Shown here: positions 11,243-57,879 of the stretch, piece after piece
Position numbering within the stretch: the stretch's first letter is position 1
How the letters are laid out: every line of letters begins with the position of its first letter
NCBI GenBank assembly: GCA_036172245.1
Contig: JAYWIR010000047.1
Span: forward strand, 124,001-188,000
Direction: 5' to 3'
Source of the DNA: Raillietiella orientalis
Taxonomy: Eukaryota
Length of the DNA: 64,000 bases
Notes under the pieces: model-generated
Told to the model about the DNA's origin: nothing
What the model saw: only the letters and a program-made list of their open reading frames with translations
The model's database searches: none
Made by a program: the position numbers and the translations under genes

Positions 11243-11770
11243 CCCGCGTCGTAGGCCGGCGGTTTACGACGGTGGTCTCCGCGCGTGCCACCATGCGTCA
11301 TGGGTTTGAATACTCCAAAGGAATAGATGCAGTGCGTCGTGGGTCCCGAGTTCACCCCACAAGATGACGCTGGTTGGCCTACATTCATCCGGGTGCAGCA
11401 CTGGTAGCGGTTCAAACCGGATGCCCCCCGATGAGGGCCGGGACAAATGGGAGTTGACCTCCGGGTACTTCCAGAATCATGGAGTGGGAGCTCCCCTTCG
11501 GTTGTGAAGGAGCGGACCCCCATTCCGGGGAGGACCCCTCCGCGTCGAACTGATGGAGTAGGTGTGTCGCCACCACCTCTCCAGGGAGTGCAGAGACGCG
11601 AGCCGATCCCTTCGGGGAAGCTGCGTCCTTCTGAATTTCGGAAGCGTTCTTTCTGGGTTCTCTTCAGAGGAGTAAAAACAGGAGCAAATCCCTCCAAGGG
11701 TCTCTTCGGACAGAATAAGGAAGGAGATTTCCCGTCGGAATTCCCCTTCGGAGAAAACCAGGGTGTAAAG
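11243..11770 (+). mobile_element. tRNA-headed SINE-like element, copy 3, running directly into L1 ORF1
   Basis: B-box-like GGTTTGAATAC (11303-11313) and core CAAGATGACGCT (11360-11371). The body is colinear with the copy at 32830-33657 up to CGGAGAAAACCAGGGTG. Confidence 0.6.
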
Positions 11771-12673
11771 GAGGAAGAGTTGGAAGGTCTCTCCGTGCTT
11801 AGTGGGGGTCAGCGGGTGGAGCGGACTTGCAGGGATGCAAGCCTGGCTCAGCGCCTGTTGAATACCCCCATTACGCTGGAGGGCAGAAAACTCTTCCCGG
11901 TGACTAAGGACCGCTCATTAGTAGCGCACCTCACTGGAGTTACCTTCCGCATGTTGAAAACCGGGGTGCAGAAGGAACTCAGTAAGTACGGCACAGTAAA
12001 CGCGCTCTGGACCAAGCCCAACGTCTTCCAAACCTATGGAAGACTGTTCAGTGACATGGCCGCAGCGCGTGTAACCGTGCACGAAAACGGCGGGCTACCC
12101 CACAAGCTCGACATCGGCAACGAGACGGTCGATGTCTGGTACGTGGGTAAGCCCAAGTACTGTGATGCCACAGGGCACCTGAAAAAACGGTGCTCTCACA
12201 TCCAGTGTTTCCTATGCGGAGAGAAGGGCCACCTCTGGAAAGTGTGCCCAAAGCGTGAAACTATGGCTCCCTCTGCTTTGAAAAAAGCCAAGGGGAAACG
12301 CGCGGAGCAAGCAAAGAAGTCTAAAGAGGCTACTGCAAGGCGTACTCAGAAGCCAGAGCCCGAACCCTCCCAGCAAACGCCGGTCGAGAAAACTCCCGAC
12401 GACGCTGGTGAGAACAAGGGCTGGCGGACGGCGAAGCCGAAAAAAGTTAAAAGAACTGAGGTCCCGAAAGCAGAAGGTGCAGCGAATCCTTTAAATAGGA
12501 AACAGCGCCTCTCATTGCTCCGCGAATGTTCGGTCGCCTTGGAGCGCGTGGGGGCCTTGGAGGCCGCCACCGGGGGAGATATCCCCCTCCTGGTTTGCGT
12601 CGAAGCCGCGATTCTCGAAGGCGAACCCTCTGTGCAAGCAGAGGAGGAGCCGTGCCGAACTCGTCAGCCGTGA
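11447..12673 (+). CDS. L1/Tx1 ORF1 (RRM-like region plus CCHC zinc knuckles); the N-terminal ~105 codons overlap the SINE-like body
   Basis: Open 408-aa frame containing VQKELSKYGTV, VDVWYVGKPKYCDATGHLKKRC and CFLCGEKGHLWKVCP. Confidence 0.75.
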   Translation: MGVDLRVLPESWSGSSPSVVKERTPIPGRTPPRRTDGVGVSPPPLQGVQRREPIPSGKLRPSEFRKRSFWVLFRGVKTGANPSKGLFGQNKEGDFPSEFPFGENQGVKEEELEGLSVLSGGQRVERTCRDASLAQRLLNTPITLEGRKLFPVTKDRSLVAHLTGVTFRMLKTGVQKELSKYGTVNALWTKPNVFQTYGRLFSDMAAARVTVHENGGLPHKLDIGNETVDVWYVGKPKYCDATGHLKKRCSHIQCFLCGEKGHLWKVCPKRETMAPSALKKAKGKRAEQAKKSKEATARRTQKPEPEPSQQTPVEKTPDDAGENKGWRTAKPKKVKRTEVPKAEGAANPLNRKQRLSLLRECSVALERVGALEAATGGDIPLLVCVEAAILEGEPSVQAEEEPCRTRQP

Positions 12674-13073
12674 GATCCCGGCACGAAAGGCCTTGAGAAG
12701 GCCGACCGCGGTCAAGGCACCTTAAAGCAGGTGATCCTGATCCTGATCCGTATGCCGGAAGTGCGTCCTCCTCCGCGGAGGCGCCTCCAAAGAAGACGGG
12801 ACGGAATTCCAAGAATCCAAGGAGGCGCATCCCTACCAAGAAGGAGGGGAACGCACCGGCAGCCGAGAGGGAAGCCGGCAGCGTGGGAACGGAGGAAGGG
12901 ATTTTCCGACTTCCACCAATGCAGTCTGCTGAGGAATCGGCCCCCATGGAGGAGGGAGAACCGGTGAGCGATGCACCCCCTCCTCCATCCGTCCCGCCCG
13001 ATCAGGTGGCGGGAGTCCCATTGCCACTTTCCCAGGAATAACACCTGGGCTTGCCTGTCGCCGTCGGATACGC

Positions 13074-13883
13074 GTGGCCTGTTGGAACGTCAACGGGCTG
13101 CGCGACGACGGCAACAGATGGGACACAGCCGCCACCCTGCGTGACTTCGACCTGGCGCTCCTGCAGGAGATCCACGTGATCACCGCGGAGAACGCCCAGG
13201 AGATCGAGAGGATCGCAGGGGGGCGGTTGCTGTGGCAATGCGGCGCCCGCAACACCTGTGGCGTCGCGTTTTTCCTGAAGCCAGCTGTCGACGCTGCCGT
13301 GAAGGGCGTGCGCTTCGACGGCGCCGGTCGGGTCGGCCAGCTGATTCTCAGATGTTCCAACACGATCGACCTCCTCGTCACAAACGTGTACGCCCCAAGC
13401 GGTCCTCTAAGGTACGAGGAGAGTAAGGCGTTCCTGGAAACCTTGAAGCGCGACTGGCTGGTGGAAGCGAACGTGCATAGGGCTCACCTGATTGCTGGCG
13501 ATTTCAACCTTCGCCTGCTCTCAGGTGATCTCCACACACAGGAACGGACGGCTAACGATTTGTGCGCCGCTATGCGCACGCGCAACTTGCTAGGGGACCT
13601 CCCGGAAATGGTCAACAGCATCGACCTCGTCTTCCTCGACGACGACCCGTGCCCACGGGTCGGCAGACGGGGGAAACTTCCGTCGGAGCTGTCTGACCAT
13701 TTCCGGTTGATTTTCGAGGTATGCCCGTGCGATAAGGACCCCCCATCCAGGGCGTGGCGTCTGTCTGGCGACTGGACGCGATTCTCAGGTACGAAACGAC
13801 ACCTTTGCCAATTCCTGAGAGGCGTCACCCTCCAGAATCTCGCCGACTGGAACCGCATGAAGGCCTTGGTTCGCAAGTTCTGA
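13074..13883 (+). pseudogene. ORF2 apurinic-like (APE) endonuclease domain
   Basis: Motifs WNVNGL, LQEIH, NVYAP, GDFN, IDLVF and SDH; the frame ends at a premature stop before the RT. Confidence 0.9.
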
Positions 13884-29450: not shown

Positions 29451-30192
29451 CCTTTTTCTGGATCGTCTCTGAGCCGCGAAAAGACCGTCGACGGGCACCG
29501 CAACGCCTCCGCCACGTTCCATTACCCTGTGCGGATCAACACGCCCCAGCCACCGCCACATATGTCACATAGCTGAAAAGCATAACAATTCGGGCCAGTT
29601 GACTTAGAATCACTAGTTTAGCAACTCCCCCGCGACCCGGAGCTGGAAGCCCGCAGCATTCAGGCTGTTTTCTCCCAGCCTCCCGCCCTTCGAGTCTCCG
29701 CCGTCTCCGACCGACCGCGCGCGCACGCGTCCTTCGTGCCTTCGCGTACCCCACGCTTGCCGGAGGATGAGAGCAGCCTATGCGTCCCTTCCGGAGGCAG
29801 GGACGCACCGGCCGAGAAGGACCCCTTCTTCGCGTCCGAGAAGCGCTGAAGGAGGATGCGGTCCGAAGTGCTCCAGAAGTGGATGGACCCCGGCTCGGCG
29901 GATATCGGGCACTCGCGTCTCAACGAGCCGAGTCTGACGTCACATACGAATGAAGGCGTCCCCTAAGCAGAGGCGAGCGTGTGTGCGAAGTGTCGGCGTT
30001 GGACGGTTCGCCTCGAGGCTCTCAGCTTGCGTTGCTGGGGAACCGCACCTCCTTCCCTCTCTCCTTTCTTCTCTTCTTTCCGTTGATAAACGGCAGCACC
30101 TGTTCTTGAGTGCATCGTTCGAGCATCTCCCCGTCTTCCTTTTCCTGGTATTCATCTCACGCACCATCCCCGACCCGACCGTCTCCTCTCCT

Positions 30193-30831
30193 TCATGTGA
30201 CTTCACGAAACCACGTCAGCGTCCACTTGAACGATTCCTCCACCTCATACGTTTTGGAAATGTACTCATACATTCGAGAAGTCCAACTACCCATTTCAGA
30301 CAGCGTCCATGGATACTCAAAAGCCGGAACATTTCGGTACGAAACCTTCAATTCTAAACCTCCTTGTATCCTTCCAGACTCAGATAAATCCATCGTCATA
30401 GGCTCTATAGTGTAGCGGATTCCTACTAACTTCGCCTCCAGAAAAAAATTCTTCAGTTCAGATTAATGTCATCTTTCCAACCATTTATCCATTGACAGCG
30501 AGTCAGTCTGCTCTATAAACATACAGCTCGCATTGAACTTGCCGCGGGTTGCTACCTTCACCAAACAGTAGAAGTGGCCTTGCACTATTTCCTCCCTCGA
30601 TACCTCTCGCTTTGTGGATACATTCTTACAGCCAGTGCTCAAAATCCTACTCTTCTTTGCATATCTCCTTTTCTTTGCACATTTCCTGCTTCTCTTTCTA
30701 TACACTCTCCTTTTGGCCGACAATTTGGGCTTTTTTATTTTCCTTCCATCTTCAAATCCTTTCTTTTTCCGAGCTACGACCGCCAAACTCCTCTCTTTCG
30801 GACGCTTGATGCCCTACTGACTTACCTTCAT
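30193..30831 (-). pseudogene. cap: Viral capsid-like gene, N-terminal part
   Basis: A single frame from ATG 30831 with three internal stops. The Arg/Lys-rich arm (KRRVYRKRSRKCAKKRRYAKKSR) is followed by ELKNFFLEAKLVGIRYTIEP, which resembles the jelly-roll strand motif of CRESS capsids. It is divergent from rep across the origin. Confidence 0.75.
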
Positions 30832-31059
30832 TAGTTACTCTTTGTAAAATACCCCTTCCTGTTTTACTCCGTCACGATTTCATTAAGCACCTCATTACCT
30901 GATCACGTCTAACTGCGCACGCGATCCTTATCTTCACCTTGTCACGGTATCGTTTACATTCCACTCTGACGCATCCACTCAATTAATCATTCCCTCATCC
31001 ACATTCCCTTCACACGTTCCAGCACTTCTACCTTATCAGACTTTCGTTAATCTCAAGAC

Positions 31060-31110
31060 CTAGATAAGGGCCATCTGGGTAATACTATTAGCTAGATGGC
31101 CCTTGTCCAG
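31060..31110 (-). promoter_or_regulatory. Rolling-circle replication origin stem-loop with nonanucleotide TAGTATTAC
   Basis: Arms CTAGATAAGGGCCATCTGG (31060-78) and CTAGATGGCCCTTGTCCAG (31092-110) form a 19-bp imperfect stem. The 13-nt loop reads CTAATAGTATTAC on the minus strand (nonamer 31087-31079). Confidence 0.95.
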
Positions 31111-31113
31111 ATC

Positions 31114-31121
31114 TATATAAA
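31114..31121 (+). promoter_or_regulatory. Candidate TATA box of viral rep
   Basis: TATATAAA immediately after the origin hairpin, 60 nt upstream of the rep ATG. Confidence 0.6.
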
Positions 31122-31180
31122 CTCTGCGTCTGATAGCCTTTACCAGTCTTACTTTCAAGCCTCTGCAAATTCATTTAAAA

Positions 31181-32013
31181 ATGCCAAACGCCAACTACTC
31201 CTCCTGGTGCATTACCCTCGATAATTGGAACCAAGATGAGCTGCAATCCATCAAATCATGGTGAAGATAACACGTAACCTTCTCCATTCTCGCAAAAGAG
31301 GAAGTAACCAATGGTACTCCGCACATACAAGGATACATGCAGTTGCATAAACCTCGGACACTGCCCCAACTGCTACGACCCCCCTTTTTACGAGAACCTC
31401 CGGAACATGCTAAGGGAAACCCCCTATCGAACCTGAACTACTGCAGAAAGAAAGATCCAGTAAACTCATCCAGACGGGACATGATGAACGTTATATTCTA
31501 GAAAATCACATGAACTTTTACATCAGACACATTGCGTTCATCAAGGAATGCTTTTGTCTACATAGAGCGACAAACCATTCAAATCCTATGGAAAACCTTC
31601 GCCTACGAAAATGACCAGTTGGCATTCTCGAGCATCTCAGGAGACCACCTCATTCAAGGAACATGTTATGGGTCAAAGACGAGAGAGGCAACGACGGCAA
31701 AACCACATTTGCCAAATACTCGTTCCCCGAAGATCTGCCATCTACCTACTGTCTTGTAAAAAGGCTGACACGGCTCACCTCTACAATGGAGAACCAATTA
31801 GCGTTGTGGACCTCACCAGAGATGATCGAGAGATAGCACAATCAAGAGTTTGAAGAACGGAATAATTTCTGATCCTAAGTACCAAATATCGATGAAATAC
31901 TTCAACACACCCCAGATCATAGGTATGGCTAACTGGAACCCAGACGGTCTTCAGATAGATGGCGAATTATTTTGAAATACCAAGAGGAAGAAAGCCAATT
32001 TCTGCATTGGTGA
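31181..32013 (+). pseudogene. rep: CRESS-DNA virus replication initiator protein (HUH endonuclease plus SF3 helicase), disrupted
   Basis: Motif I WCITLDN (~31205), motif II PHIQG (31319-33), motif III YCRK (31439-50), Walker A GNDGKT (31687-704), Walker B VVDLTR (~31803), LKNGIISDPKY, motif C GMAN (~31922) and Arg finger SDRW. Stops at 31262 and 31268 plus several frameshifts. Confidence 0.93.
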
Positions 32014-32069
32014 AGACAACTCCATACAACCGTACATTAGACAGCGACAACAAAATGTAAATGATACTG

Positions 32070-32089
32070 AATAAATTCTTTACTTTATT
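32070..32089. terminator. Convergent polyadenylation signals of rep and cap
   Basis: AATAAA on + at 32070-75 and on - at 32089-84; the latter overlaps the TAA that ends the capsid-like frame. Confidence 0.65.
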
Positions 32090-32416
32090 GTTGCATCTCC
32101 TTATCTCTTATTCCTCTAAACATTCGACACATTCTTCTTATTCTGAAAAGAGGTGCATCTCTTTTCAACAGTCCTTCTGTTGGATAAACGCCTTGTCTGC
32201 AATCAACTTTCAGTTCGTCTGTACATCCATTCCTGGCATGTGCTTCATTATGAAATAATTCCCAAGTTACATCTTCAATGCCGTCTCTCTACTACTATCC
32301 AACTCTATCCATATCGACCTCACTGTTCTCACGTCATATCCTTCTCCGCAATTATCCATTCTTTTCCTGTAAGCAGGCACGTAAAAACTAGCACTTCTCA
32401 CGCTGAAATATATCTT
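32085..32416 (-). pseudogene. cap: Viral capsid-like gene, probable C-terminal part
   Basis: The minus strand reads KIYFSVRSASFYVPAYRK...RSIWIELD and, after a frameshift, ...CRMFRGIRDKEMQQ*, ending at the polyA signal. It has the same strand and composition as the N-terminal piece, as expected if a circle was opened inside cap. Confidence 0.6.
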
Positions 32417-32829
32417 TCCAGCAGAAAGCAAGATCGGTTTCGGACACATGAGGACGCGTCCCTCGGCCCGAAATCCGGAAGGAGGTTTCCCAGCGATCCG
32501 AGATCCCCCCCTGCTTTCCGCTGAGCTCCTCGCGGAAAGGAGGGAGACAGCACTCGGTGGCCACTGGCCTCCGAGGTTACCCACCACCCCTGGGTCGGAG
32601 GCCTCTCGGAGGGCTTCTGGGGAGAGAACATGCGACCGTTGCCGGCATGGGCAGCGGTCCCTGCTTCCCGCTGGGTGATCGCCTTGGTGCCCCCCCTCAA
32701 GAGTCCGTTTGCTCTCGGGCAGAGAAAGATCCTTCGTCCTGTCGTCCTCGCAGATGCGAGGGCCCCTCGGACAGCTCTCAGAGGGGGACACCCTGTTTTG
32801 TTTCCACGCCTCTCCACCTGAGGCAAGGG

Positions 32830-33657
32830 GGCATAATTCTTCAGGATAGGGCACCCCGGAAGGGGGTTCCGCCCTATAAATCCAGGAAGGGCTCGGAGTC
32901 CGTTCCTCCCACGCTTGGGAAAGGATCCCCCTCGCATGGGGGGATCGCACCTTCCACCCTGGTTGTCTCCGAAGAATAACCCCGAAGGAGAACCTCTCCT
33001 TCCTCATTCTTCCGGAGGAACACCCCCCAATGGGGAGGGGCTGTCGTCTCCATTTCAACTTCTCCGAAGGGAATCCGGAAAGGATCCTCTAGGAATTTAC
33101 TAGGAATTTCTTCTCCGGAGGGAACCCGCAAGGGAACCGCTCCTGTTCACTCCTCTGAAGAGAACCCCGAAGGGACGCTTCTGAAACTCAGAAGGGGCGC
33201 TGCAGCTTCCCGCAGGGAATCGCTCTCGCTTGCTTCCTTGCACTCTTGCACTCTGTGAAGAGGCGACAACTAGGAGGGTAACCCCCGCTTAGGGGGACCC
33301 AGCTCCATCGAACAACTAGGAGAGGTGCCCGCGAGGGCTCCTGCCCCATGTTGAAACCGGAAGGGTACCCCCGCTAAGGGGGTCCGCTCTTTGTTGTACG
33401 ACCGGAGGGGGAACTCCCCACTCCTTGGATTCCCGGAAGGACCCGAAGATCGACTCCCATCATTCCGGCCTTCATCAGAGGCCTCCGGCTTAAACGACCA
33501 CCGGTGCCACGCCCGAATGTCTCGGCCAACCAGCGCCATTGCAGGAGAAACGAACGGAACCCAACGACGCAGTTGCGTCAGTTTCTGCCAGAGTATTCGA
33601 TCCCGCGACGCATGGTGCCACGCGCGGAAGCCTTAACCACAAGACCTCCGACGCGGG
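32830..33657 (-). mobile_element. tRNA-headed SINE-like element, copy 5
   Basis: The reverse complement begins CCCGCGTCGGAGGTCTTGTGGTTAAGG...GGATCGAATAC (B-box-like, 33603-33593). It matches copy 3 at the head and copy 4 at the tail. Confidence 0.6.
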
Positions 33658-34912: not shown

Positions 34913-36419
34913 TCAAATCCCGAAAGATATTACAAATAAATATACATATATATACATCTTGATATATAAATTTATATGGGGATTAAAGTACAGATTAGTG
35001 CATATTGTAAAGATTATATATCTACAGATAGACTGGAATACAAATTTATTTTGATCTACATATTTACTGATACTCATCAACATACATATTATCAATACAA
35101 TTAATAGGAGGCCTATTACATATATTTATACATCGATTGATGGATAGATAAATAGAAATTGTGAAAATTAGAAACAAATGAATACATATGGTATATGTAT
35201 ATTAATGCACAAATTGATATATAAATCAACATTGAGAGGAATACCCTAATTTATTTTAACTAACATAGTTTTACATTTTAACTAACATTTATTTTAACAT
35301 ACATAGTAACTGATATTTATTAATCTAATACTATTAACAGTAATATTGTTTTAGCATATATATATTTATTAAGGTATATTATTAATATAATGAATGTGCT
35401 TTTCATATATCAATACATACATTCGTATATACATTAACATATATCATAAAGATTATAAAAGATGCATACGTGTTTATTAGTATATGCATCTCTATACGGA
35501 TGAACATATGAGAATATATTCATGTGTTTACTATAGATATTAACACAACTAATTATATGTTTACCATGCACATTTATGTATGAATTAATGTCTAGATAGA
35601 AATATATTATAAAGTTTGTAAAAAAATAATGCATATGTTTATTATGTACATTAATATACATATTTACATATGGATTAATATATACATTGATTTTAACATA
35701 CATACTTATTAATGTAATTTCTAATACGCACTCAATACATACATTGTAAATATAGTATAAATGCATATGTTCATTATGTACATTTACATATATCTATAAT
35801 AAATGTAAACTGAATGAACATATCAACACACATGAACATATGAACACAATGTTTTCAAAATTAAAAAAAAAATAAAAATGAATGATGACATTTAAAAATA
35901 GCAGTAAATAACAAAAAAGATCAACAAATTAAAAAGGCAAAAAAGAAAATTTTGTATTTGATATTCCCATCACGTCCAACAATCAGCATGTGGCACTTCC
36001 TCTACGAATGACGAATTCCTTTGTCGGGATTTTGTTCGATAGATACATACGCATGTTTAGAATCCGATATTCATACATCATTTCACATATACTCATTATA
36101 TGCATACAAATATGCTGCTATGTATGAGAAACATATATATTTTCCTTTGCTATAATCTTTATAATATATATCAATAAAATATATTAATAAGTATTATTAA
36201 TTATACCAAAAAATATTTTTGATAAAGTAGATTTGAATATTAACCATGATGCAAATATATGCATAGATATATATTAATGTACATAATAAGGATATATATT
36301 TCTCTTTCTTTATAATCTTTATAATAGATATTAATCCCTATGGCAATCCATATATAATTTATATAATTGTATACATAATTAGTACGTATATCTGCTTTTA
36401 GAGTCCTTAGGGATTTTGA
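34913..36419. repeat. Extremely AT-rich 1.5 kb insert with ~110-bp imperfect terminal inverted repeats (non-autonomous DNA transposon-like)
   Basis: Left end TCAAATCCC...TATATAAATTTATATGG...TATTGTAAAGATTATA versus reverse-complemented right end TCAAAATCCC...TATATAAATTATATATGG...TATTATAAAGATTATA. Internal CATATGTTTATTATGTACATT-type repeats and abrupt GC edges. Confidence 0.55.
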
Positions 36420-49468: not shown

Positions 49469-50946
49469 ATGGTGGCTGCAAAGAATTTACCCGCGGTTCC
49501 AGAAACCATTTTGAAAAGAAGAAAAAGAACTATAGAGAACAGAAAGAAACGATTGATCGCGTTAGCTCAAGTATGTTGATCTTCACTAAAATTCACTATT
49601 CCAGAGTACCGCATTTGTATGTAGTTTACAAACATGGAAGATTAGTTTTGTGCACAGTATTTGAAAGTAACTTTTGGTATGGTAGAACATGCATTGTGAG
49701 ACTCGTAATGATTTGTATGGCATGATATGCTTTTGAGTGTTTGGTATTGTTACTCAGTTCATGAAATGCGTTGTGCTGTCTTCCAAAAAATTGGTGTACC
49801 CAGCTTGCTTACCGATGATGTAATTTTTCTGCAGTCAAGGAAGAAAAGAAAGTGGAAGAGGCACGAAATCTTTAAACGAGCCGAGCAGTACGTAAAAGAG
49901 TACAGAACTAAAGAAAGAGATTTGATCCGGCTGAAAAGACAGGCTAAACAGCATGGACATTTCTATGTTCCTGATGAGCCAAAACTTGCTTTTGTAATTC
50001 GTATTCGTGGGTAGGCTGCAACGTAAAGATGCTTAATTTTACTAACCTTGTTTCAAGAATTAATGGAGTTCATCCCAAGATAAGAAAGGTACTTCAGCTG
50101 TTCCGTTTGAGGCAAATTAATAATGGCATATTTATGAAACTTAACAAGGTTTGTTTGGCTTGATTCTTTTGGGGGCCTCTAGTGTTTGGGCAGTGAATCA
50201 CTTGTAAGATTTGACAATGCACAAGAGGCAGAGTAATATCAGATTTAATCTCAACAATTTAGTATTTGTTGATTCATGCTCTGATAACAATAGGCATCCA
50301 TCAATATGCTGCGCATAGCAGAACCATACATTGCATGGGGCTACCCAAGTTTAAAAACAGTTAGACAGCTCATTTACAAACGTGGTTTTGCCAAAATTAA
50401 TCACCAGCGAATTCCAATTCATCGGAATGAAGTAATAGAAAAAAAATTAGGTAAGCATTTCTTTTGCTGTATGCACAGACTTTATAACTAATTGTGCATT
50501 TTCCAGGAAAATTCAACATAATATGTATTGAAGATTTGATTCACACCATCTACACTGTGGGAAAGCATTTTCGACATGCCAATAATTTTCTGTGGCCATT
50601 TAAGGTAGGTCGGAATTTCTTGCTCTCTGACATTTTGGAGGGAAAGCTTTTGCCATCTTTTTCCAAGATATCCAAAGCAAGGTCTGAGGTCTATCCTGCA
50701 AGCTAGTTTTCGTTTTTACAGTATTAATTGGTACATGTTTGAAACAACTCGCGTTTTTGACCTGCAGATAAGCTTCACACTTTTTTTTTTTTTTTTTTTT
50801 AATCCGTTGTTTTATTTGTTCATTTTTTTCCGTAGTTAAACACACCTACTGGTGGATGGAGGAAGAAAACGAACCATTTTGTAGAAGGAGGAGATTTTGG
50901 CAACCGGGAAAATTTCATCAATGAACTTTTGCATCGGATGATTTGA
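49469..50946 (+). CDS. RPL7: 60S ribosomal protein L7 (uL30), 6 coding exons, 244 aa
   Basis: Exons 49469-49570, 49835-50010, 50058-50148, 50294-50450, 50507-50604 and 50836-50946 (735 nt, all GT-AG). Motifs [50 protein letters not shown] and [18 protein letters not shown] at 50966-71; likely 5' UTR intron 49337-49467. Confidence 0.97.
50173..50292 (+). ncRNA. Intronic box H/ACA snoRNA (predicted 28S rRNA pseudouridylation guide)
   Basis: Hairpin 1 GCCTCTAGTG...CACAAGAGGC (50175-50229); H box AGAGTA (50230-35); hairpin 2 with TATCAGA/TCTGATA lower and TCAACAA/TTGTTGA upper stems; ACA at 50287-89, 14 nt from the pocket top. The pocket strands TTCATGC and TTAATC complement GCAUGAA-UG-GAUUAA of large-subunit rRNA. 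Confidence 0.88.
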
Positions 50947-56532: not shown

Positions 56533-57879
56533 ATGTCTGCTGAAATAAATCCTTCCAGTATACCGACCAGAGAAGTATTTACTATTGCCGATATGGCAAA
56601 ATGGGAGAAATCGGAGGCATACAAGGTGTGTTCCTTTTAGAATGTCTCATTCAGTTCATAAAAGTTAAAGATCAGGGAAAAGGGGCTTTTCATTCACAGG
56701 GTCTTCCTTATTAATTCGAAAAATTAATAAATTCGGATGAGTTTAACTACTTAAAAAAGGTCTATATTGCCTTGAGCGCTGTTTTCATGGTGCTGCAGCC
56801 CGCGAACTGTGGCCCAAGTACTGTCCCTACATTTGAGGATGTTTATGTATATTTGTTTAGGAGTATACTTCCTTCATTCTTGCCTTGAACGCTGCTGTTA
56901 AGGGAAAACCAACGACTGCCACTTGTCTGCCCAATGTTCATATTCAGAACTTAGTACATGTACTTGATACTTTGCATAATTTAGTGAATGAAATACCTCC
57001 CATTGAACAACCACAGCGATTTGGGAATAAAGCATTTCATACTTGGTACAAAGCATGTAGAGAGGTAAAACTCGAAAATTTTACTCTTATTAAGTATCTA
57101 TTAGAAATCAGGGAGCTTGTTACAGAGTGCACTTCCGGAACAATTCCATTTTGCAATTCCAGAATTATCATCATACTTAACTGAAAGTTTTGGTAATGCT
57201 ACTCGTATCGATTATGGCACTGGACATGAAATGTCTTTTGCCATGTTTCTGTGCTGCCTTTTCCAGATTGGTTTGCTAAAAAGTGAGGACAGATTGGCAA
57301 CTGTATGTCAGTTGTTTCAAAGGTTGACAACAAACTATATTTTGCCAATATCTAGTTTCTATTCTATTCTGTACACAGATATTTGCAACTGGTACGAAGT
57401 CTACAGCTTGTTTATAGAATGGAGCCAGCTGGAAGTCATGGAGCTTGGAGTCTAGATGACTATCAGTTTCTTCCTTTCCTCTGGGGCAGCAGCCAGTTGA
57501 TTGGTGAGATATCCATTCATGTACATGTAGCACCCACAATGAATGTAGGGCATCCCAAATTGGAACCCAAAATGTTCCCAGATGAAGCCATAGCTAGAAG
57601 ATATGCTTCAGATTTCATGTTCTTAGAATGCATAAAGTTTATCTTTGAAGTGAAAACAGGTCCATTTGCTGAACATTCTAATCAACTTTGGAACATCAGT
57701 GGAGTTGCTACATGGGAAAAAGTAAATCAAGGACTCATCAAAATGTATAAAAAGGAAGTAAGTTCAATAACTGCAGTGACATCATTTAGGGGATTAAGGT
57801 TTTAGGTAAGTTTCCTGTCATTCAACACACATTGTTTGGTTCCATTCTGAGAATCAATCCAAGCACTGCACAAGTATGA
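56533..57879 (+). CDS. PTPA: Serine/threonine-protein phosphatase 2A activator (PTPA/PPP2R4), 6 coding exons, 309 aa
   Basis: Exons 56533-56625, 56861-57064, 57105-57322, 57379-57503, 57549-57757 and 57799-57879 (930 nt). Motifs QPQRFGNKAF, SFGNATRIDYGTGHE, MEPAGSHGAWSLDDYQFLPFLWGSSQL, KTGPFAEHS and KFPVIQH. AATAAA at 58043-48. Confidence 0.95.

What the first reader, a model, noticed from the sequence alone, without database searches (positions are those of the whole stretch)
30190..32420. Apparently genome-length endogenous CRESS-DNA virus that the ORF track misses
Seen: the RCR motifs I-III and SF3 helicase motifs of Rep in order across stops and frameshifts, a divergent basic-armed capsid-like gene, a 19-bp origin hairpin with canonical TAGTATTAC, a TATA box and convergent AATAAA signals, all within ~2.2 kb of lower-GC DNA embedded in host transposon sequence. 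Established: this is the layout of ambisense Cressdnaviricota genomes, and reported endogenous copies are mostly rep fragments. Inference: this is a fossil of a whole virus. It would link a probably unclassified CRESS lineage to this invertebrate as host and could be reconstructed as a circle.
Basis: partly seen in the sequence, partly recalled or inferred. Interest (0 to 1): 0.9.

Follow-up and report, generated by a model that had tools for sequence, protein, structure and literature searches.

The report
Decayed genome-length CRESS-DNA virus fossil
A roughly 2.2 kb stretch of this eukaryotic chromosome piece is the broken remains of what looks like one whole small circular single-stranded DNA virus, from a lineage otherwise known mostly from metagenomes, so it hints at that lineage's host but is a familiar kind of viral fossil.

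Summary
Window 30196-32420 is 42.5% GC inside 62% GC DNA. It carries three parts.

- **Rep pseudogene (31181-32013, + strand).** It matches CRESS-DNA Rep profiles colinearly across five reading frames. Pfam Viral_Rep scores 32.3 bits. A profile of 36 clade Reps hits five ORFs at E 3e-5 to 3e-14 and nothing else in 64 kb.
- **Origin-type stem-loop (31056-31114).** Its loop holds the window's only TAGTATTAC.
- **Divergently placed 212-codon frame (30831-30196, - strand).** It has the most basic N-terminal arm of 627 window ORFs.

Rep has three in-frame stops and at least four frame changes. The capsid-like frame has three stops.

In trees, Rep falls outside the genomes with circovirus-type capsids. 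It sits in a fully supported group with two named Anicreviridae (Mulpavirales) and Rep-like proteins on long contigs, one named as from the Mytilus edulis genome.

Three things are not shown:
- The capsid assignment rests on position, size and charge only; no sequence or fold match was found.
- No read or contig bridging a junction was available.
- The flanks are not demonstrably transposon.

Genome-length endogenous circoviruses are already published, so this is a new member of a known kind. Interest is moderate.

The parts
30196..32420 (.). Virus-derived insert, about one unit genome. The boundaries are approximate: the left edge lies between 30040 and 30196, the right edge between 32420 and 32435.
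   Evidence: GC is 0.425 against 0.622 in both flanks. The base-composition skew changes at about 30040 and about 32430. The stretch is unique within the window.
31181..32013 (+). Rep pseudogene (HUH endonuclease plus SF3 helicase). In-frame stops lie at 31262-31264, 31268-31270 and 31612-31614. Frame changes fall within 31456-31519, 31704-31722, 31823-31838 and 31942-31951. The terminal stop is at 32011-32013.
   Evidence: Pfam Viral_Rep scores 32.3 bits, E 1.2e-7, covering profile positions 3-81 of 82. The clade profile hits five colinear ORFs at E 3.3e-5 to 3.4e-14, and the next hit in the window has E 0.76. tblastn gives four colinear HSPs in frames 3, 2, 1, 3, with E 3.9e-28 for P0155 and 3.5e-26 for P0169. 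The last frame reads RSSDRWRII..., against the clade consensus LSxDRWDI.
31056..31114 (-). Origin-type stem-loop. The nonanucleotide TAGTATTAC sits at 31079-31087 in the loop, on the minus strand.
   Evidence: DNA fold of -14.2 kcal/mol, z -4.39, with 0 of 200 shuffles as stable. Inverted repeat of 29-nt arms, 83% complementary. The motif occurs once in 64 kb against 0.06 expected.
30193..30831 (-). Capsid-like frame. ATG at 30831, 212 codons in one frame, in-frame stops at codons 6, 121 and 123, end stop at 30193-30195. It has a lysine/arginine-rich N-terminal arm.
   Evidence: Translation. K+R is 28 of the first 60 residues, the highest of 627 window ORFs. Relatives have the same divergent position and a basic arm. 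No Pfam, PDB, homologue, cap-profile or hhalign match was found.
32014..32420 (-). Right-end segment. It is either the 3' intergenic region or the C-terminal third of the capsid gene separated by the integration break. Minus-strand open frames lie at 32088-32288 and 32267-32419. Convergent AATAAA signals lie at 32070-32075 (+) and 32084-32089 (-).
   Evidence: Sequence and ORFs. AATAAA positions. Its composition is like the rest of the insert. No protein match.
31114..31121 (+). TATA-like element, 60 nt upstream of the Rep ATG.
   Evidence: TATATAAA has 4 matches in the window against 0.26 expected; the other three lie in the AT-rich block at 34.9-36.4 kb.
30040..30195 (.). Pyrimidine-rich (+ strand) tract next to the left edge. 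Whether it is viral or host is undecided.
   Evidence: GC is 0.54. On the minus strand, GC skew is +0.50 and AT skew +0.42, unlike both the flank and the insert core.

Best explanation
[quoted passage not shown] It lies in a eukaryotic, probably animal, chromosome and has decayed since. The original virus would have been an ambisense circle of about 2.2 kb. An intergenic stem-loop carrying TAGTATTAC served as the rolling-circle origin. Rep was read rightwards from it, and a capsid gene with a basic DNA-binding arm was read leftwards. The circle was opened away from the origin, near or inside the 3' part of the capsid gene, and joined to host DNA (inferred; probably non-homologous end joining, not Rep-mediated). 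Both genes are now dead and nothing suggests a present function. Shown: Rep homology and its breaks, the origin hairpin, the layout, the compositional island. Inferred: capsid identity, unit length, germ-line integration, mode of integration.
For: **Rep homology**
- Pfam Viral_Rep is above its curated cut-off on the stop-read-through N-terminus.
- 1230 library proteins match at E<=1e-3, the best at 39-45% identity.
- 88 of 88 full-length relatives hit only 31100-32100 in the whole window.
- Five colinear clade-profile hits cover endonuclease motifs I-III, Walker A, Walker B and motif C.
- 58 of 93 clade-conserved columns are kept.

**Origin and signals**
- Origin hairpin and a unique nonanucleotide.
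- TATA-like element and convergent poly(A) signals.

**Layout matches relatives**
- In 16 of 69 relatives' genomes the nonanucleotide is likewise antisense to Rep.
- The insert size matches relatives, which are mostly 2.0-2.7 kb.

**Placement**
- In a tree of 66 rows, a split with 100 SH-aLRT support puts the window's Rep with two named Anicreviridae and nine Rep-like proteins on 10-794 kb contigs, one of them named as from Mytilus edulis. 27 other CRESS Reps lie on the other side, including all 10 genomes with Circo_capsid.

**Decay and context**
- 6 in-frame stops and at least 4 frame changes.
- Four 151-nt contigs of a DNA run are identical to the insert. Two of them cover a capsid-frame stop and the last Rep frame change.
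- Eukaryotic intron-bearing genes (uL30, PTPA) lie on the same contig, 17-25 kb away.
Against: - No read or contig bridges either junction; one search found only internal pieces, and the run may be the assembly's own sample. Integration therefore rests on the assembly and on the decay.
- The capsid-like frame has no detectable relative. Tried: Pfam, PDB, a 5.8-billion-protein word search, 690 ORFs of 155 CRESS genomes, 11 cap-cluster profiles, and hhalign (probability 1.9%). Its AlphaFold model is unusable (pLDDT 42).
- At 212 aa it is short for the group: only 3 of 58 relatives' caps are 215 aa or less.
- About 400 nt at the right end are unexplained.
- The Rep sits on a long branch (1.81), so its exact sister group is unsure.
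- GC skew on the origin-bearing strand (+0.285) exceeds all 98 relatives (maximum 0.268) and is unexplained.
Confidence: 0.8

Rival explanations
1. Assembly chimera or contaminant: an exogenous circular virus from the sample was stitched into a host contig.
For: No junction-bridging read or contig was available. CRESS viruses are common contaminants of genome projects, as PMC6069186 notes for short contigs (passages).
Against: - Both genes are dead, with 6 stops and at least 4 frame changes. A replicating contaminant should have open genes.
- Two of these defects are present in independent 151-nt contigs.
- Depth of the insert pieces is about 2, not the excess expected of an episome.
- The insert is one permuted unit inside a 64 kb contig that also carries host genes.
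Confidence: 0.05
2. Only Rep plus the origin region is viral. The left-hand 'capsid' frame and the right-hand 400 nt are other low-GC DNA, so this is a partial fossil rather than a genome-length one.
For: No sequence, profile or fold evidence supports a capsid. The frame is shorter than 55 of 58 relatives' caps.
Against: - The whole of 30196-32420 shares one composition and one strand skew, distinct from both flanks.
- The frame starts at an ATG placed as in relatives, is open for 212 codons apart from three stops, and has the most basic arm in the window.
- 50 of 79 relatives' capsid ORFs also have no Pfam match, so a blank is expected.
- The total length equals a unit genome.
Confidence: 0.12
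3. The element belongs to Circoviridae (circovirus or cyclovirus), as TAGTATTAC and the layout might suggest.
For: The TAGTATTAC nonanucleotide and the ambisense two-gene layout. That these mark the family is recalled, not tested here.
Against: The window's Rep is separated from all 10 genomes with Circo_capsid by branches with 99 and 100 SH-aLRT support. The capsid-like frame has no Circo_capsid match even at E<=10. The Rep C-terminus carries the clade-specific S.DRW motif.
Confidence: 0.03

Closest known systems
Anicreviridae (order Mulpavirales), e.g. Otevirus soksuewis and Dragonfly larvae associated circular virus-10 (Manawavirus)
   Same: The Rep groups with them on a branch with 100 SH-aLRT support. 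It is 35% identical to the Otevirus Rep over 255 aligned residues in four colinear frames. It shares the clade motifs GN.GK[ST], KY.S and S.DRW. Genome size is about 2.2 kb (contig lengths).
   Different: This copy is chromosomal and dead and sits on a long branch. The family's demarcation criteria were not on hand, and only two papers in the library mention the family. The capsid is unrelated in sequence to any fetched.
Endogenous circoviral elements made of complete tandem genomes in cyprinid fish (PMC6372831, passages read)
   Same: A genome-length integration of a CRESS-DNA virus, with both genes and not just rep.
   Different: Those belong to the genus Circovirus, in vertebrates, arranged in tandem, and share about 70% nucleotide identity with a living virus. 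This is a single permuted unit of another order, and no relative reaches 50% identity in the Rep N-terminal domain.
Rep-only CRESS-derived elements in invertebrate and protist genomes (PMC3198968, PMC6069186), plus Rep-like proteins on 10-794 kb contigs such as P0233, named 'Mytilus edulis' by NCBI
   Same: Same kind of event, and for P0233 and eight others the same Rep clade.
   Different: Here the origin hairpin and a capsid-like frame are kept next to Rep.
Circoviridae (Circovirus, Cyclovirus)
   Same: Ambisense two-gene circle with TAGTATTAC in a stem-loop between the 5' ends.
   Different: Rep is not in that clade and there is no Circo_capsid match.

Membership tests
Cressdnaviricota (CRESS-DNA viruses) | Rep with an HUH endonuclease domain (motifs I, II, III) | tested here: met
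   Viral_Rep PF02407 scores 32.3 bits against a cut-off of 26, covering profile positions 3-81 of 82. Clade-profile hits at E 3.3e-5 and 3.4e-14.
Cressdnaviricota (CRESS-DNA viruses) | SF3 helicase domain fused to the endonuclease | tested here: met
   Clade-profile hits at positions 185-218, 213-254 and 260-296, with E 1.7e-8, 1.6e-5 and 1e-10. Pfam helicase models did not match the separate fragments.
Cressdnaviricota (CRESS-DNA viruses) | Origin stem-loop with a conserved nonanucleotide | tested here: met
Cressdnaviricota (CRESS-DNA viruses) | Capsid protein gene (single jelly roll) | tested here: inconclusive
   A basic-armed 212-codon frame sits in the right place. It has no homology and the model is unusable (pLDDT 42).
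Anicreviridae | Rep clusters with named members of the family | tested here: inconclusive
   It lies on the same side of a 100 SH-aLRT split as Otevirus and Manawavirus Reps, but on a long branch and outside the subgroup that holds them (quick tree, LG+G4). ICTV criteria were not available.
Circoviridae | Rep within the Circoviridae clade, and a Circo_capsid-type capsid | tested here: not met
Endogenous viral element | Viral sequence continuous with host DNA | tested here: inconclusive
   It is continuous in the assembled window, which carries host genes. No junction-bridging read or contig was found in the one run available, and no whole genome is held.
Endogenous viral element | Loss of coding capacity consistent with neutral decay | tested here: met
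   Three stops and at least four frame changes in Rep, and three stops in the capsid-like frame.

The most novel reading that the evidence does not exclude
This is a complete, circularly permuted unit genome of an otherwise unsampled Anicreviridae-like virus fixed in an animal germ line. In this reading the capsid gene is split by the integration break, with its first two thirds at the left end and its last third at the right end. That would be the first genome-length fossil of this family and direct evidence that the family infects animals. The extreme excess of G over C on the origin-bearing (packaged) strand would then record strand-specific damage or editing of the single-stranded genome.
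Probability: 0.3. Interest if true: 0.55.

Novelty: new member of a known kind. Interest (0 to 1): 0.4.

Why it matters
Anicreviridae-like viruses are known almost only from faecal, nest and environmental metagenomes. Their hosts are listed by association only (table in PMC11945456, passage read).

A chromosomal fossil on a contig that also carries ordinary host genes gives a direct, though ancient, host link. It also preserves the non-Rep parts of the genome (origin and capsid-like gene) that most published endogenous CRESS elements lack.

It does not change how such viruses or their fossils are understood.

Tried and rejected
**Capsid homology: nothing found**
- Pfam at E<=10.
- PDB sequences; the best E-values were 0.4 and 0.93, to unrelated proteins.
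- Word-indexed search of 5.8 billion proteins.
- phmmer and tblastn against 362 plus 328 ORFs of 155 CRESS loci. Only arm-composition matches appeared.
- Profiles of 11 capsid clusters. The best E was 0.026 at about 7 bits, and the arm-bearing ORF was the top hit in 4 of 11.
- hhalign against 38 capsids gave probability 1.9%.
- AlphaFold2 on the single sequence gave pLDDT 42 and was not searched further.
- The ESM Atlas would not take a stop-read-through protein. I did not pursue it.

**Searches that failed or were unavailable**
- The first Rep searches found nothing useful: the word-indexed search with the 76-aa fragment had 0 hits, and a close-relative scan of viral contigs gave 1 weak locus.
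- No whole genome is held. Other copies, empty sites and orthologues could therefore not be sought.

**Reads**
- One DNA run was listed, with 14% of the words. No RNA holder was listed.
- Laying that run gave four internal 151-nt pieces and no cover at the junctions.

**Mutation spectrum at conserved Rep columns**
- 19 single-step differences were seen, with G>A 4.0 and C>T 0. That is too few to show strand-specific editing.
- CpG observed/expected is 0.83 in the insert against 0.89-0.94 in the flanks, which is no signal.

**Poly(A) position as a guide to the capsid end**
- Only 9 of 58 relatives have AATAAA within 10 nt of the capsid stop, so this is weak.

**Other**
- Rfam found no family in the window.
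- I considered a very short intron to explain the first Rep frame change and rejected it. The only GT..AG candidate I read is about 33 nt long, and the alignment to relatives needs no insertion there.
Full report
**What is there**

The window is mostly 58-65% GC between 3 and 47 kb. Positions 30196-32420 drop to 42.5% GC, against 62.2% in the 2 kb on either side. The stretch is unique in the window. Finer profiles put the right edge at about 32420-32435. The left edge lies between 30040 and 30196. The 155 nt in between are a pyrimidine-rich tract of 54% GC that resembles neither the flank nor the core.

**Rep**

An ATG at 31181 opens a frame that reads MPNANYSSWCITLDN..., then PHIQGY and YCRK, with stops at 31262 and 31268. 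With these two stops read as X, the 106 residues match Pfam Viral_Rep at 32.3 bits against a cut-off of 26, E 1.2e-7, over positions 3-81 of the 82-position profile.

phmmer against 1.84 billion representatives gave 1230 proteins at E<=1e-3. The best scored 69 bits, and identities were 39-45%. No relative therefore reaches 50% identity in this domain.

All 88 full-length hits, searched by tblastn against the whole 64 kb, matched only 31100-32100 (96 HSPs, none outside).

A profile of 36 Reps of the nearest clade was run against all 2099 stop-to-stop ORFs of the window. It hit five ORFs and nothing else below E 0.76:

| ORF | Profile positions | E-value |
|---|---|---|
| 31121-31261 | 5-29 | 3.3e-5 |
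| 31271-31498 | 34-96 | 3.4e-14 |
| 31615-31833 | 185-218 | 1.7e-8 |
| 31566-31850 | 213-254 | 1.6e-5 |
| 31826-31972 | 260-296 | 1e-10 |

These run in profile order but in different frames. tblastn shows the same path in frames 3, 2, 1, 3, with E 3.9e-28 for P0155 and 3.5e-26 for P0169. A fifth frame, 31945-32013, reads RSSDRWRII... and then stops. It matches the clade's C-terminal consensus LSxDRWDI.

The helicase motifs are readable directly. GNDGKT matches the clade's GN.GK[ST], VVDLTR matches V.FD..R, and KNGIISDPKYQIS and MANWNP match the following conserved blocks.

Rep is therefore complete in extent but broken by three in-frame stops (31262, 31268, 31612) and at least four frame changes (within 31456-31519, 31704-31722, 31823-31838 and 31942-31951). 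One stop falls on a clade-conserved column. 58 of 93 conserved columns keep the clade residue.

**Origin**

Positions 31056-31114 form an inverted repeat. As single-stranded DNA it folds to -14.2 kcal/mol, z -4.4, and 0 of 200 shuffles fold as well. The loop holds TAGTATTAC at 31079-31087, the only copy in 64 kb against 0.06 expected.

The motif is on the minus strand, antisense to Rep. This orientation is a known arrangement: 16 of 69 related genomes have it, 34 have the other, and my scan found none in 19. That scan's loop limit missed the window's own hairpin. A wider limit gave 27 antisense against 71 sense among 98 genomes.

TATATAAA lies 60 nt before the Rep ATG.

**Capsid-like gene**

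On the minus strand an ATG at 30831 opens one frame of 212 codons down to a stop at 30193. It is interrupted by stops at codons 6, 121 and 123. Its first 60 residues hold 28 K+R, the highest of 627 window ORFs of 60 aa or more; the next highest is 23.

Six of the eight relatives inspected have the same plan: Rep rightwards, hairpin near the Rep start, and a divergent capsid of 244-330 aa with 15-24 K+R in the first 60 residues.

I found no sequence, profile or fold support. This blank is expected, because 50 of 79 relatives' capsid ORFs have no Pfam match either. The capsid call is an inference from position, size and charge.

**The right end, and where the circle was opened**

After the Rep stop come AATAAA on the + strand (32070) and on the - strand (32084-32089). 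The latter overlaps the stop of a 67-codon minus-strand frame, which is preceded by another open frame up to the edge. Two readings remain.

- **(A)** The capsid is the 212-aa frame, and 32014-32420 is a long 3' intergenic region. Relatives have 86-371 nt there.
- **(B)** The circle was opened inside the capsid gene, so that 32420-32088 encodes its last third. The total would be about 320 aa, as in L096, L099 and L106. The stop at 30193 would then simply be the first stop in host DNA.

Reading B is favoured by capsid length. The median is 268 aa in 58 relatives, and only 3 are 215 aa or less. It is also favoured by the poly(A) signal at the frame's stop, though only 9 of 58 relatives show that feature. 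I rate A and B about equal.

Either way, the insert equals one unit genome, permuted relative to the origin. The break was therefore not at the origin nick site. That argues for end joining and against Rep-mediated integration (inference).

**Which virus**

Two quick maximum-likelihood trees (LG+G4, SH-aLRT) were built, with the window's Rep read through using X at every break.

- In the first (96 rows), the window's Rep fell in a clade of 11 with 99 support. The other 85 Reps lay apart, among them all 10 genomes whose capsid matches Circo_capsid.
- In the second (66 rows), a split with 100 support separated two groups. One group of 39 rows held the window's Rep, two named Anicreviridae, four other named CRESS viruses or records, and eight Rep-like proteins on contigs of 10-671 kb. 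The other group held 27 rows.
- The two named Anicreviridae are Otevirus soksuewis and Dragonfly larvae associated circular virus-10 (genus Manawavirus), in order Mulpavirales.
- One of the four named records is an NCBI protein from Mytilus edulis on a 794 kb contig.

The window's Rep has a long branch (1.81) and groups at 92 support with four unnamed proteins. It is Anicreviridae-like and is not in the clade of genomes with circovirus-type capsids (Circo_capsid). Family membership proper was not decidable here.

**Is it really integrated?**

The same contig carries eukaryotic genes with introns: a uL30 exon at 49712-50011 and three PTPA exons at 56861-57802. The PTPA exon scores about 160 bits against one set of PDB PTPA chains and 80-90 bits against the other set. 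My recall is that these are human and yeast respectively, which would fit an animal host.

The one public DNA run that holds part of the stretch gave four 151-nt contigs identical to the insert, at 30517-30667, 30691-30841, 31862-32012 and 32263-32413, at depth about 2. None bridges a junction. Two of them cover defects: the capsid-frame stop at codon 6, and the last Rep frame change. Those defects are therefore not errors of this assembly alone, although the run may be the assembly's own sample.

A replicating contaminant would not carry ten inactivating lesions. I put a chimera at about 5%.

**Flanks**

No transposon domain was found in 41 flank ORFs between 22 and 42 kb. Repeated DNA related to a LINE-like element begins about 560 nt to the right. 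That element carries zf-CCHC and endonuclease domains at 11435-13883. 'Embedded in transposon sequence' is therefore not shown for the junctions themselves.

**Unexplained**

On the origin-bearing strand the insert has 27% G against 15% C, a GC skew of +0.285. This exceeds all 98 related genomes, whose median is -0.01 and maximum 0.268. The skew spans coding and non-coding parts. The pooled spectrum at conserved Rep columns is too small to test strand-specific deamination, and CpG is not depleted.

**Comparison with the literature**

Passages read in PMC3198968 give 302 Rep-like against 3 capsid-like endogenous sequences. [quoted passage not shown] PMC6372831 describes complete circovirus genomes in tandem in cyprinid fish. 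Only two papers in the library mention Anicreviridae, and both only in lists.

A genome-length CRESS fossil is thus a known kind of thing, uncommon among published invertebrate cases. I found no endogenous element reported for this family in the passages of those two papers that name it. That is a thin basis for claiming a first.

**Verdict**

This is a real, well-supported endogenous CRESS-DNA virus fossil, about one genome long, of an Anicreviridae-like lineage. Rep and the origin are shown; the capsid is inferred. It is a new member of a known kind, of moderate interest.

Noticed in passing
window 34920-36410: A 1.5 kb block of 21-26% GC, rich in TATACAT-like low-complexity sequence, sits between 60% GC flanks. 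It has no tandem array beyond an 18-nt unit repeated 1.9 times, and no coding signal was seen.
   Followed up: partly
window 11435-13883: LINE-like retrotransposon remnant. One ORF has a CCHC zinc knuckle (19.6 bits), followed by an ORF with an Exo_endo_phos endonuclease domain (E 1.5e-11). Pieces 71-78% identical to it and to other places in the window recur at 32978-33628, right of the insert.
   Followed up: partly
window 49712-50011 and 56861-57802: Host genes lie in the 35% GC part of the window: a ribosomal protein uL30 (L7) exon, and three exons of PTPA, the PP2A phosphatase activator, separated by short introns. The GC-rich, repeat-like block at 3-47 kb contrasts sharply with this gene-bearing DNA.
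   Followed up: partly
window 30196-32420, minus strand: G exceeds C by nearly two to one on the origin-bearing strand (GC skew +0.285). This holds across genes and spacers alike and is larger than in any of 98 related CRESS genomes.
   Followed up: partly
P0175, P0187, P0199, P0202, P0210, P0215, P0233, P0242: Rep-like proteins of the same clade sit on contigs of 48-794 kb, one named as from Mytilus edulis. This suggests the lineage has left fossils in several eukaryotic genomes.
   Followed up: no
window 30647-30682: An 18-nt unit is repeated in tandem at 83% identity inside the basic arm of the capsid-like frame.
   Followed up: no
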